Notes: generated from the letters alone by a model not told the origin. DNA of 64,000 nt from Octopus sinensis (GCF_006345805.1 NC_043001.1:7626001-7690000); one strand, 5' to 3'. Counted from the stretch's first letter, positions 10,535-60,634 are shown. Numbers and translations are program-made.

Positions 10535-10579
10535 TTACTTTACCGGTTTCACTCTTTGGAAAAAGATTGTCAAAAGTAA
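10535..10579 (-). ncRNA. Minimal type I hammerhead motif with U3-A8 core
   Basis: Minus strand: TTACTT TTGACAA TCTTT-TTCC-AAAGA GT GAAAC CG GTA AAGTAA = 6-bp stem I, core UUGACAA, stem II, palindromic stem III (ACCGGT), GUA triplet. A second copy at ~55229-55303 (+) keeps TTGACAA. Confidence 0.7.
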
Positions 10580-10664
10580 CATGTGGAAGATTGGTTGCGT
10601 TAATTATTGGTTGTTACAAATTGCTACATTACATATATACAGTCTTTGGTAACAGGGACATGTT

Positions 10665-11020
10665 AAGGACAAAAAAGTTCTACAAGTTCCTTAAAATATT
10701 GGGCACAAAAGATTACTACAAAAATAATCATTCTCAAGGACATGCTTAAGATAGTTTCCAGAAGGAATTGATATTGGTTTTGGTATTGTATCTGTATATT
10801 CAAACATGCACAGAATATTGGTTGACACAGAGTACTACAATCCATATAAATATACATTCTTTGGTGCCAAGAGCATGTTGAGAATATAAAAAAGTTTAAC
10901 AATCGCATTGAAATATTGGGCACAAAAGATTACAACAAATATATTATACATTCTTAAGATAATTTTCAGAGGGAATTATTAAAAAAGTTCAGTAAATATT
11001 GGTATACACGTACAGCATAT
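10665..11020 (+). repeat. Diverged tandem repeat, period ~215 bp
   Basis: AAATATTGGGCACAAAAGATTAC at ~10694 and ~10911; CTTAAGATA.TTT.CAGA.GGAATT follows both. Confidence 0.65.
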
Positions 11021-13720
11021 TATGAGTTCAAAAAGCTTTACGTTATAATACCATGTTAACGTAAAAGAATATTATCTATTTCAAGGGACACAGTAGGTGT
11101 GTTTGTTTGGGGGGAAAAGGAGGAGTAATGTGGAACTGAAAAGAATTTACCCTTTTTGTCTCTCCTTCAAGCATCAATGATTTAGGGGTCAGGATGGGGT
11201 GAGTGTGTGTGTCTTTGTGTGTGTGTGTGTATATATATATATATATGTGGTTTGATAGATGTGTCTGTGTGTTTGTAAGATTTGGTAGGATGGTATGTGT
11301 ATATGTATGTCCGTTTGTGAACCGCGTGTGTGGTTGTCTGGGTGTTGTGCGTGTGTGTGTGTGTGCGTGCACGTATGTATGTGTGTGGATGGCATTTGGC
11401 ATGGCGCTGCGTGTGTATATGTGTGTCTTTATGAAGGTCAAAATGGTGTGAGTGTGTGTGTCTTTGTGTGCGTGTATATATATGTATACATGTGTTTGTG
11501 TGTGGCGGGGACTGTTTTTGATTAGTTCCAGCGTCCATTGTGGTGTAAATAGATGTCATTTAAAGAATTTAAATCCTACCAAAATAATTCTTTAAATAAC
11601 CCACCGAGTGCTAAACGCAGCAAAACGTGTATGTGGTCAAAGTAGGTACCTGTGACCAGAAACTGTTATTTGGTGAGAAATGTGAAATGATTCGGCCGGA
11701 TTCGTCTCAAATAGGCCTAGCAATATTTGGGGTGAATTACGCCCAGTTCGTCTCTCAAACTGCATAGTTGGCTCTAAAATTATGCCTATTTATAGAACAT
11801 GTGAACACGATTTCTACATGCTTCAAGAGTAATGCATCACGTATTGTGAGGTTGCTGATTGTGCTATAATCCAGCCGATGTTCTGTAAAATATCTTACTA
11901 CGCCATCTTTTTAAGTCGTCACTCTTTCGATTCAGATTTGAATATTGCTACATGTACATACATACATATATAGGTGCATATATGCATGCATATATGCATC
12001 CTTAAATCGATACATACACAGGAAACTAACATACACAAACACATATATGTATATAAATATGTGTGTATGTATGTTTGTGCGTGTGTGTATACATGCATTC
12101 ATATTTGCATATGTATTTTCACGTGAGTTCTTAATGGAAATTGATGGGCTTTGCATGCCTATAGTAAGGGTTGAATGTCCGTCTTCTGTTTATTTCAATG
12201 AATTTTCCAGTCGCCACTATTGAAACCGCAGTAAGTAGGACTACATATACAAGTGAAATAAAAATGGCTGACTTCAGGTCAAATTCCTTTCAATATAAAC
12301 ATTACGACATTCCCCATGTATATATATATATATATATATATATATATATATTATATATATATATATATATATCTATATATATATATATATATATATATAT
12401 ATATATAATATATTATATATATATATATATCTATATTATATATATTATATATATATTATATATATATATATATATATATATATATATATATATATATATA
12501 TATATGCATATAATGTATGTATGTAATATATACATATGTATAAATTAAATTATAGATAAAACCACTATTAGACAAATCAAACAGTGAAAAACATAAACCA
12601 AACAGAAATTAAAATCAAATAAATAATATACTACATATTAAATATAAAATTTAAAATTATTAATTTATATTTGTAAATATTATTTAAATATATATATATA
12701 TATATTTTTTTTTTTTTAATATTTATATTTTTATTTTATTTATTTTTTTTAAAATTATATCAGATATATATAACTATCAAAAAGTATTAAAAAGTATACA
12801 TATATATATATTGTGAAATTTGATTTATTATTTCTAAATTTAATTTTTCCCTGTAAGTTTGGAATAATATTCCTTCATATTATTATTATTATATGTATAT
12901 ATATATATATATATATATATATATATGTACTTGCTTTTAATTTTATGGTGAAGACAGTTTAACATTAAATTGGAGAATGCTTTAATACATTGTAGAGTAA
13001 CAAATTTATGAACCTATAAAATTGTTGACTGTTTACCCATCAGCAGTCAGGTGAAATATCGAAGCCATAGTCAACAACAATCTTGTATAATAATAATACA
13101 CTCACACACGCACGCACACATGCACACACTCGCCCACACACATACGTACATTCATACACACACACACACACACACATATATATATATATATATGTATATA
13201 TATATATGTATATATATATATATGTAATATATATATATATATATGTATATATATATATATATCAACATATAGATATATCTATACGGATATGTACAATACT
13301 TTGCATTTATAGACGATTTTTCGCATTCATATATATTATTCTTCTAATAGATAGGTATAATAAATTATTTACTTCCGTCTTCATATATTTGTAGATTTTT
13401 TACAATTTTGACGAGTAAATATTTAAAACTTATTGCTTAAATTTCCGCACAGACTTTTACGTAACTAAGATTTACTGCACAAGTATTCAGGTTTCTGTGT
13501 GTGAATCGAAAATTAAATTTCTGTTATATTTGGTAGCAAATTATTTCCTCTGCTACGGGTTAAATTTAAATCAATGCTTTATTCCACATATTTTGTCTGC
13601 GGAGTTAATTTGTTGGCGTAGTAATATTTCTATCGTTTAAGTATTTGTTGTTTAGTTAGCTTCGAATCTCTGTTACTTTTATTTTCTTAACTTGATCATA
13701 CGTTTAATATATGCATACGT

Positions 13721-14118
13721 AGGCGCAGGAGTGGCTGTGTGGTAAGTAGCTTGCTCACCAACCACATGGTTCCGGGTTCAGTCCCACTGCGTGGCATCTT
13801 GGGCGAGTGTCTTCTGCTATAGCCCCGGGCCGACCAATGCCTTGTGAGTGGATTTGGTAGACGGAAACTGAAAGAAGCCTGTCGTATATATGTATATATA
13901 TGTGTGTGTGTGTGTGTTTGTCCCCCTAGCATTGCTTGACAACCGATGCTGGTGTGTTTACGTCCCCGTCACTTAGCGGTTCCGCAAAAGAGACCGATAT
14001 AATAAGTACTGGACTTACAAAGAATAAGTCCCGGGGTCGATTTGCTCGACTAAAGTCGGTGCTCCAGCATGGCCGCAGTCAAATGACTGAAACAAGTAAA
14101 AGAGTAAAGAGTAACGAG
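13721..14118 (+). mobile_element. Full-length tRNA-derived SINE (CORE-like centre, internal AT/GT tract, GAGTAAA tail)
   Basis: AGGCGCAGGAGTGGCTGTGTGGTAAG...GGGTTCAGTCCC (A/B boxes), CTTGGGCGAGTGTCTT core-like block, 3' GCTCCAGCATGGCCGCAGTCAAATGACTGAAACAAGTAAAAGAGTAAAGAG; multiple copies in window. Confidence 0.85.
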
Positions 14119-58584: not shown

Positions 58585-58793
58585 ACAGATAGATAGACAG
58601 ATACATCGATACAGAAATAGACAGAGCGATCGATAGATAGGTAGGTAGGTAGTAGGTAGGTAGGTAGGTAGGTAGGTAGACAGATAGATAGATAGATAGA
58701 TAGATAGATAGATAGATAGATAGATAGATAGATAGATAGATAGATAGATGGATAGATAGATAGATAGATAGATAGATAGATAGATAGATAGAT
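58585..58793. repeat. (ATAG)n/(GTAG)n microsatellite
   Basis: Direct reading. Confidence 0.95.
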
Positions 58794-59275
58794 ATAATAA
58801 TATATATTAAAGAACAATCATTCCGTAATCACATGTATTAGTTTGCAGCGTCTTAAGTAAATACCTCCACCCAGGTCTGGGTGTCAAAGCGATGTTTTGG
58901 AGTTTCTTCAGAGGATATATTTGCGAATTTAAATACGCAGTAATTTATATATATAAATGCATGACATTTTATACACTTAAATATAAACTAATTAATGAAG
59001 ACATAAATATAGGGAAGACATAACACCACATACACATATGTCTTCTATAGATACGTGCGTGTATGTTTTTACCTGTGCATCTATGTGTCTGTGCGTCTAT
59101 CTGTGTGTGTGTGTTTGTGCGCGTGTATAATAATCAAATAACATATTTTCAACTTTCATTTATTGTGTTCGGTTTATGGATTTCTGTGTGTCAGTATGTA
59201 GGCAAGTGTGTATTGTGACGTATATATGCCTGCATATATATACACACACACTTGTATTTCTAGATAAATCTATGT

Positions 59276-59495
59276 AGAAACGTTAGCGCGCCGGGCTAAC
59301 GTAATGCTTAGCGGTATTTTGTCTGTCATTACGTTCTGAGTTCAAATTACGCCGAGATCGACTTTGCTTTTATCCTTTCGGGGTCGGTAAATAAAGTACA
59401 AGTTTCGCACTGGGGTTGTTGTAATCAACTTAATCCCTTTGTCTGTCCTTGTTTGTCCCCTCTATGTTTAGCTCCTTGTGGGCAGTAAAGAAATA
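59276..59495 (+). mobile_element. Meta-domain-like SINE
   Basis: Matches 6547-6777. Confidence 0.8.
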
Positions 59496-60226
59496 TAACT
59501 TTCAGCATTATAATTATATATTACTATGTGCATGCGTGTGTGTATGTGTGTCTGTGTAGTTTTATCGTATAGACATATGTTTAGTCATATGTCGATGTTA
59601 TTAAAGGCATTGTTGAATATTCTCTTATAAATTATCGTACACTAAAATTACACAAACATGGTTGTACATCATTTCAGCTGGCTGCTGATATCTAGCTAAT
59701 ATGCATAATGTAAAATTGACCTGCAATTCATCACCATGTCAGGTTTTAAATTTATCCAGCTTTAGTCTACAGCGTTGGCAAAGTGGATCCGTTATTTGCT
59801 CGACAGATTACAGAAGCGATTTCAATGGAAGTTATGTTGTCTCGACCTTCTATGCACGCTCTATTGATTACAGCAGGTTAAGAGGCAGTGCACGTACAGA
59901 ATCTCCTATGTACACAAATAATCTGAGAACTAATGATTAACACATGCAAATATGCACGGCTGGTATATTAGGGACAATTAAAGATTGTGTCATGATTGTT
60001 TGAACGGAAGGAAACGATGGCGGTTAAAGCGGTTTAACTTGAAATCTCTGTCATTGTAGAATTTTACGGCGTGTTAATTACTAAGCAATTTAAACTTCTA
60101 AATATGCAGACATTTTAGAAACGTTATACTTAATTCTATACAGGAGTATGTTGCTTAACAAACTACTTTTCAATTTCAAGAATTCATTTTATCATTGTGT
60201 TGTGTCTGGAGAGAGTCATTTCTTTT

Positions 60227-60634
60227 TGTGCCTTATAATGTAACACACTCACCGGTAAAATTTCCATTTCTTATTTTTATTTTCCTAAAATTTTCGATGC
60301 GTCTTGCAAACTTTTCAATAGTTTTGACTCTGTCCGTTATTTACACTGCGTTCCCTTTTGTTTGTGCGCGTGTGTGTGGGTCAGTGTGTGTGTGTGTGTG
60401 TTTATACATGCCTGAATGTACGTATGTATGTATGTGTGTGTTTGCATGTATATGTATGTATATATGTGTGTATGCATATTATATATGTATGTGTGTGCAT
60501 CTGTATGTACGTATCTTGCAATATTTATGTCAAAACTATTGAAAAGGTTGCATGACGCAACGAAAATTTTAGGAAAATAAAAATAAGAAAAAAGTGGTAA
60601 TTTTACCGGTGAGTGTGTTACATTATAAGGCACA
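60227..60634. mobile_element. Inverted repeat (arms 60227-60328 and 60529-60634) with U3-A8 hammerhead-like motifs
   Basis: Right arm CTA TTGAAAA G GTTGC-ATGAC-GCAAC GAAA ATTT TAG (60536-60572); the left arm has the mirror motif with the same TTGAAAA core. Confidence 0.75.

What the first reader, a model, noticed from the sequence alone, without database searches (positions are those of the whole stretch)
10535..60572. Compensatory U3-A8 catalytic-core covariation in three independent hammerhead families
Seen: core UUGACAA at 10567-10573 (minus), repeated in a second copy at 55236-55242; UUGAAAA at ~17768-17774 (minus); UUGAAAA in both arms of the 60.2/60.6 kb repeat. Each is followed by a stem II hairpin, GAAA, a palindromic stem III (ACCGGT or AAAATTTT) and a pairing stem I. 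Established: C3-G8 is a tertiary Watson-Crick pair in the active hammerhead, and U3-A8 is a functional but uncommon double substitution. Inference: the double change in several unrelated families is strong internal evidence that these motifs were selected as ribozymes. Standard CUGANGA searches would miss them, so this genome's hammerhead count may be underestimated.
Basis: partly seen in the sequence, partly recalled or inferred. Interest (0 to 1): 0.75.

Follow-up and report, generated by a model that had tools for sequence, protein, structure and literature searches.

The report
Penelope hammerheads with drifting core pair
These motifs are tail pieces of three abundant Penelope-type jumping genes and match a published variant (U3-A8) of the small self-cutting hammerhead RNA, predicted to cut weakly and in pairs; the smaller new point is that related repeats in this genome also multiplied while that core pair was mismatched, so cutting is likely helpful rather than essential.

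Summary
55236 lacks G12, 17774 has an insertion before GAAA, and the 60.3 kb arm has a broken stem II. All are 3' pseudo-LTR remnants of Penelope-like retroelements (RT plus GIY-YIG found upstream of genomic copies). Exact U3-A8 patterns occur 5,659 and 5,139 times (controls 17 and 20) against 5,986 canonical hits in two patterns, so CUGANGA searches undercount. U3-A8 in Penelope minimal hammerheads was published in 2014, and this scan has noted it before on other DNA. The families are two lineages, not three: A and B share 58% RT identity; C is distant (18-26%). Each family is essentially fixed for U3-A8, so the window shows no covariation by itself. True 3/8 covariation appears elsewhere: a 360-nt retrozyme-like family holds U3-A8, C3-A8 and C3-G8 subfamilies, and family C has an amplified U3-G8 subfamily. 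Mismatched or wobble masters therefore kept transposing. I found no pile-up of ends at the cut site. Cleavage is untested.

The parts
10535..10579 (-). Family A minimal type I hammerhead motif, U3-A8, stem I 6 bp, ACCGGU palindrome, predicted cut after GUA (between 10541 and 10540); matches family consensus
10490..11570 (-). 5'-truncated 3' UTR/pseudo-LTR remnant of Penelope-like family A, ending in (TA)n; no ORF in this copy
   Evidence: 81% to L091 downstream of its GIY-YIG ORF
55228..55331 (+). Decayed second family A copy; core at 55236-55242 but G12 deleted
17738..17777 (-). Family B motif, U3-A8, stem I 3 bp; this copy has extra bases before GAAA and has lost C11.1
17690..17935 (-). 3' end remnant of Penelope-like family B, ending in (TA)n (lower bound approximate)
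   Evidence: 748-aa RT+GIY-YIG ORF upstream of the same motif in L344
60536..60572 (+). Family C motif, U3-A8, unpaired G after A9, 5-bp stem II with G10.1-C11.1, AAUU palindrome, stem I 3 bp, predicted cut after UUU (60569/60570)
60285..60321 (-). Family C motif in the inverted arm; stem II damaged by two substitutions
60194..60700 (.). Head-to-head inverted pair of family C 3' ends (- arm 60194-60514, + arm 60529-60700), a typical Penelope-like insertion
   Evidence: RT (YVDD) and GIY-YIG upstream of the motif in L243, L245, L256, L258, L262

Best explanation
The motifs are minimal type I hammerhead sequences in the 3' pseudo-LTRs of three Penelope-like retroelement families, of the published U3-A8 variant, and in the active source elements they likely cut the tandem precursor RNA weakly by pairing two copies through the palindromic stem III. 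Shown: the sequence anatomy, the link to RT plus GIY-YIG ORFs, thousands of copies, two separate lineages (A+B; C), and amplified subfamilies with C3-A8, U3-G8 and C3-G8 in related repeats. Inferred: U3-A8 replaces the C3-G8 tertiary pair; a single motif cannot form stem III, so two sense copies on one transcript (upstream and downstream pseudo-LTR) would form a double hammerhead (about 55% that cleavage occurs in vivo and helps the element); selection acts only on master elements and is weak enough for one-sided intermediates to spread for a while. The window copies are truncated fossils; none has a same-strand tandem partner, and three of five are damaged.
For: Enrichment: 5,659 vs control 17, 5,139 vs 20; window shuffles 0 of 200. 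Retroelement link: Pfam GIY-YIG for A (7e-6) and B, RVT_1 plus GIY-YIG in the 748-aa B ORF, GIY-YIG for C in L349 (4e-7); variable 5' truncation, clustered 3' ends and inverted partners in all three, with (TA)n tails in A and B. Core and palindrome are kept across families whose stems I and II differ wholly. Single-change states are rare in the ACCGGU class: C3-A8 116, U3-G8 70. In the 360-nt family the 3-8 pair is the only one of 19 pairs with a two-sided change (UA 16, CG 7, other 6 of 29 distinct rows). Cervera and de la Pena 2014 (PMC4209133) describe the same architecture, the U3-A8 variant, no monomer activity and low dimer activity for the min-HHR they tested.
Against: No cleavage data. 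Internal 5' ends show no pile-up at the predicted cut site in any of five families (none at position 0; a biased sample of loci). Family A lacks G10.1-C11.1; some relatives have almost no stem II (L183/L184); family C has only a 3-bp stem I and an all-A-U stem III. RNAcofold paired the palindrome between copies for A, A2 and B but not for C, and gave the full hammerhead fold in none. C3-A8 and U3-G8 subfamilies amplified. Naiad elements proliferate without canonical hammerheads (PMC8557442, passages).
Confidence: 0.8

Rival explanations
1. The motifs descend from hammerheads but are no longer catalytic in these families; the core letters and palindrome are kept for another job (an RT-binding or dimerisation signal at the 3' end) or simply ride along with successful masters.
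For: Weak or missing stem II and G10.1-C11.1 in family A and relatives; a C3-A8 subfamily of 12 copies from 9 loci forms a 99/98 clade; the related family H is mostly C3-A8; no ends at the cut site.
Against: Both states that became most abundant are Watson-Crick pairs; in the 360-nt family the mismatch lies between two paired states; stem I pairing is kept with different letters across families.
Confidence: 0.15
2. One reading: three unrelated families each gained U3-A8 by compensatory double change under strict selection for catalysis.
For: C is a separate lineage; the RT tree needs two changes for U3-A8 (0 of 200 bootstrap trees with one), and family C has its own G8 subfamily. The 360-nt family is a third setting with both paired states.
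Against: A and B are 58% identical over 424 RT residues, and the relatives with a linked endonuclease (L184, L176; L155 by an inverted partner) carry U3-A8; one-sided intermediates spread; the AU test does not reject a single U3-A8 clade (p 0.078).
Confidence: 0.04
3. Chance matches in AT-rich DNA.
For: UUGAAAA and GAAA are common words at about 32% GC.
Against: Shuffles and reversed-pattern controls; fixed place in the 3' UTR of three retroelements.
Confidence: 0.01

Closest known systems
Minimal hammerheads (min-HHR) of metazoan Penelope-like elements, including the U3-A8 variant of Schistosoma mansoni Cercyon (Cervera and de la Pena 2014, PMC4209133; read parts 1-2 of 4; figures and supplements not seen)
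   Same: Type I topology, palindromic stem III, place in pseudo-LTRs, mostly solitary or inverted truncated copies, U3-A8 core (about 1,300 hits there); family C also has the unpaired base after A9 and G10.1-C11.1.
   Different: U3-A8 is about as common as or commoner than C3-G8 in the patterns tested here; family A lacks G10.1-C11.1; amplified C3-A8 and U3-G8 subfamilies are not mentioned in the parts I read.
Natural U3-A8 hammerheads (Perreault et al. 2011, PMC3088659; passages)
   Same: First natural C3-G8 to U3-A8 covariation; cites in vitro activity of such exchanges.
   Different: The passages I saw give no host for those examples and do not describe Penelope-like min-HHR families.
Non-LTR retrozymes (Cervera and de la Pena 2020, PMC7229834; bioRxiv 10.64898/2026.07.22.740005; passages only)
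   Same: The 360-nt tandem, non-coding, one-hammerhead-per-unit family G (outside the window) fits this kind.
   Different: The window's three families are remnants of protein-coding elements; no hit for 'octopus' in either text.
Neptune-type C-terminal EN+ Penelope-like elements (Craig et al. 2021, PMC8557442; passages)
   Same: C-terminal GIY-YIG with a CX4CxxC linker, (TA)n bias, inverted 5'-truncated partner copies.
   Different: No reference proteins were aligned, so the clade name rests on motifs; family C is far from A and B and may be another clade.

Membership tests
Penelope-like element (EN+) | Single ORF with RT followed by GIY-YIG endonuclease | tested here: met
   B: 748-aa frame with RVT_1 and GIY-YIG. 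A: RT and EN in L346, GIY-YIG in L091. C: broken frames with YVDD and GIY-YIG 4e-7; Pfam did not name the two C RT pieces scanned, nor the L258 EN.
Penelope-like element (EN+) | Pseudo-LTR structure with inverted 5'-truncated partner and short 3' tail | tested here: met
   Inverted pairs around ORFs in L344-L347; direct pair in L343; 3' ends cluster in family C at about +101 and +158, and A and B run into (TA)n a short fixed distance after the motif.
Penelope-like element (EN+) | Spliceosomal intron in the pseudo-LTR | not tested
   No transcript data for A, B or C.
Minimal type I hammerhead (min-HHR) | Core N3-UGA-N-N8-A ... GAAA ... UH with a pairing 3-8 | tested here: met
   Met in family consensus and in 4 of 5 window copies; G12 missing at 55236.
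Minimal type I hammerhead (min-HHR) | Palindromic stem III allowing a dimer | tested here: met
   ACCGGU in A and B (intermolecular pairing in cofold), AAUU in C (not recovered by cofold).
Minimal type I hammerhead (min-HHR) | Stem II with G10.1-C11.1 | tested here: inconclusive
   Met in B consensus and C; not met in A (U.U or a two-base bulge).
Minimal type I hammerhead (min-HHR) | Site-specific self-cleavage after UH | not testable with these tools
   Indirect test (ends at the cut site) negative in a biased sample.
Neptune clade | CX2-5CxxC linker plus CCHH in EN, and RT phylogeny | tested here: inconclusive
   Linker seen in A, B, C; no reference clade sequences in the tree.
Non-LTR retrozyme (family G, outside window) | Short non-coding tandem unit with one type I hammerhead; circular RNA | tested here: inconclusive
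   360-nt tandem unit met; circRNA not testable.

The most novel reading that the evidence does not exclude
This one genome records both routes across the hammerhead 3-8 pair as amplified subfamilies: U3-A8 to C3-A8 to C3-G8 (a return to the canonical pair) in a 360-nt retrozyme, and U3-G8 to U3-A8 in Penelope family C. Natural near-isogenic series would then show how much ribozyme activity retrotransposition needs, which bears on the open question of what Penelope hammerheads are for.
Probability: 0.45. Interest if true: 0.45.

Novelty: new member of a known kind. Interest (0 to 1): 0.27.

Why it matters
The variant itself is known. The practical points: in this genome a canonical-core search misses about as many hammerhead motifs as it finds or more, and the role of hammerheads in Penelope-like elements is still unclear (stated in PMC8557442). 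Subfamilies about 90-96% identical that differ at the 3-8 pair give ready-made natural constructs to relate cleavage rate to copy success.

Tried and rejected
Rfam scan: no hammerhead among the 150 rows shown. Strict descriptor on 70 evenly spaced 10-kb stretches (700 kb): only 3 hits (1 U3-A8, 1 A3-G8, 1 G3-C8), too few for a covariation test; genome-wide patterns were used instead. Fossil cut marks, a lead from earlier notes: not seen. Type III or long-helix-III readings of family C were considered by eye and dropped because stem I then fails. The EN-only tree could not place C. A GAAAATTTTAGG match in a roughly 490-bp tandem repeat was not shown to be related to C. Sequencing runs for family G: no RNA holder listed on record; contigs of four runs, from four organism labels, held both U3/A8 and C3/G8 letters and could not root the tree or show ends. 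Papers not held: Luense et al. (PMC5785218), Przybilski and Hammann (PMC1986816), Martick and Scott (PMC4447102), so rates for C3-A8 and U3-G8 cores are recalled as strongly reduced, not read. Two searches for compensatory intermediates in print returned 0 papers; these were narrow, and unseen supplements of PMC4209133 may list such variants.

Full report
Setting. The window lies at G000:C5:7626001-7690000 in a 2.72-Gb, microsatellite-rich animal genome.

Observation. All five cores are at the stated places. A descriptor with positions 3 and 8 free finds three U3-A8 motifs (10573-, 17774-, 60539+) and one canonical motif (25255-); 0 of 200 shuffles reach three U3-A8. The copy at 55236 lacks G12. 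The copy at 17774 has extra bases before GAAA, where family copies read GACC-GAAA or GACU-GAAA. The 60.3-kb arm has a damaged stem II. Two of five copies match their family consensus. Family A has a 6-bp stem I but U.U at the base of stem II. Family C has the unpaired base after A9 and G10.1-C11.1, but only a 3-bp stem I and an AAUU palindrome.

What they belong to. DNA searches gave 1,564, 654 and 326 candidates, of which 40 each were scored and 30 fetched. A and B copies are 5'-truncated at variable points and end in (TA)n. Long copies carry a GIY-YIG endonuclease about 2 kb (A) or 0.7 kb (B) upstream. L344 holds one 748-aa frame with RVT_1 and GIY-YIG between inverted motifs. For C, five of 30 loci found with an upstream probe shared the whole 1.5 kb upstream, with a broken RT and GIY-YIG ORF. 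All three are therefore Penelope-like elements, and the window holds only non-coding 3' remnants. The 60.2/60.6 repeat is a head-to-head inverted insertion, so one transcript carries only one sense motif.

Independence. A and B are 58% identical over 424 RT residues and 52-55% in the endonuclease; relatives in L184, L176 and L155 also carry U3-A8 with ACCGGU. C is 18-26% identical to A and B. On a nine-row RT tree U3-A8 needs two changes (0 of 200 bootstrap trees with one), but long branches meet and the AU test does not reject one clade (p 0.078). Row L159 was labelled C3-G8 from 90% identity to L133; its motif was not seen. The fair count is two lineages.

Genome counts (exact patterns; control = pattern read backwards). 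With 14-18 bases then GAAACCGGTH: U3-A8 5,659 (17), C3-G8 96 (12), C3-A8 116 (23), U3-G8 70 (14). Family C type: U3-A8 5,139 (20); G8 forms 260 (19). Canonical family E, linked to a Poseidon-like ORF in L353/L354 (label recalled from motifs): 5,890 (13). Copies are not independent events, so the Fisher test on the 2x2 table says nothing about selection. These four patterns are not a census; an A6U family also exists.

Real covariation lies outside the window. Family G is a 360-nt tandem non-coding unit: 66 of the 96 C3-G8 hits and 19 of the 100 listed C3-A8 hits by my hand count, and 191 U3-A8 hits. On 29 distinct rows (4 truncated or gapped rows left out, one earlier) the 3-8 pair is the only one of 19 with a two-sided change: UA 16, CG 7, other 6; relatedness inflates those shuffle statistics. 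With positions 3 and 8 masked (54 of 57 rows), C3 rows split from U3-A8 at 100/100, and 12 C3-A8 copies from 9 loci form their own 99/98 clade with a diagnostic loop and different truncation points, so a mismatched master transposed repeatedly. Midpoint and an outgroup 62% identical (family H) both put the root among U3-A8 rows, which suggests U3-A8 to C3-A8 to C3-G8; the tool warns of long-branch joining. In family C about 47 of the first 100 G8 hits share a loop change seen in 1 of the first 100 U3-A8 hits (hand count). In a 59-row tree, 11 U3-G8 and 4 scattered C3-G8 rows form a 99/96 clade with longer end branches; the U3-A8 rows were chosen by similarity, so the age contrast is inflated and the direction U3-G8 to U3-A8 is inferred only.

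Mechanism. By established hammerhead chemistry (recalled; the 3-8 pair is confirmed in passages of PMC3884650 and PMC3088659), U3-A8 replaces C3-G8. A loopless palindromic stem III needs a second copy; cofolding paired the ACCGGU palindromes between copies but not the AAUU of family C. In tandem source elements two pseudo-LTR motifs would cut the precursor RNA. PMC4209133 reports no monomer and low dimer activity for such a motif. I looked for ends at the cut site, a lead from earlier scan notes, and found none at position 0 in five families (50, 65, 93, 114 and 51 alignments). With amplified one-sided intermediates, this points to weak selection on masters.

Comparison and novelty. U3-A8 in nature dates from 2011 and in Penelope min-HHRs from 2014. 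The scan holds 56 notes with these words in at least 18 genomes, one with a similar mismatched phase. I found no paper on amplified intermediates in two narrow searches, and could not read Luense et al. Verdict: real, known kind, modest extra value as a natural mutational series.

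Noticed in passing
window 25215-25260 (-); decayed inverted copy 25735-25850 (+): Canonical CUGAUGA hammerhead of family E (5,890 exact genome hits), tied to a Poseidon-like ORF in L353/L354.
   Followed up: partly
G000 family G, e.g. L212:1854-2213, L263-L275: 360-nt tandem retrozyme-like repeat with U3-A8, C3-A8 and C3-G8 subfamilies and a bulged long stem I.
   Followed up: yes
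L276-L281, L284-L292 (family H): Older relative of G (about 62% identical) whose copies are mostly C3-A8.
   Followed up: partly
family C, window 60529; one search pairs such as C1:11426596/11426641: Many 5' ends fall 10-13 bases before the core at a small AGUC-AA-GACU hairpin, often as head-to-head pairs 14-40 bases apart; may reflect snap-back priming. The sample is partly biased by my query.
   Followed up: partly
L133:6313(-), L147:9197(+), L151:5737(-), L355:1704(-): Family with an A6U core (CUGUYGA, C3-G8 kept), downstream of a Neptune-like ORF in L133.
   Followed up: partly
L183, L184, L172, L176: Relatives of A/B keep the core and ACCGGU but have little or no stem II.
   Followed up: no
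window 35723-36432 (-): Broken ORF that looks like another Penelope-like RT C-terminus (recalled motif; 53-56% to pieces in L092; no Pfam hit).
   Followed up: partly
window 3208-3525 (-): C-terminal piece of an R2-group (HERO-like) retrotransposon endonuclease, by recalled motif; near-identical frame in L306.
   Followed up: no
window about 36919-37143: Long near-perfect inverted repeat (hairpin) centred near 37030.
   Followed up: no
L111, L136, L137, L038, L054: Roughly 490-bp tandem repeat with GAAA boxes and a CUGANGA core further downstream; may be one of the permuted hammerheads noted elsewhere in this genome.
   Followed up: no
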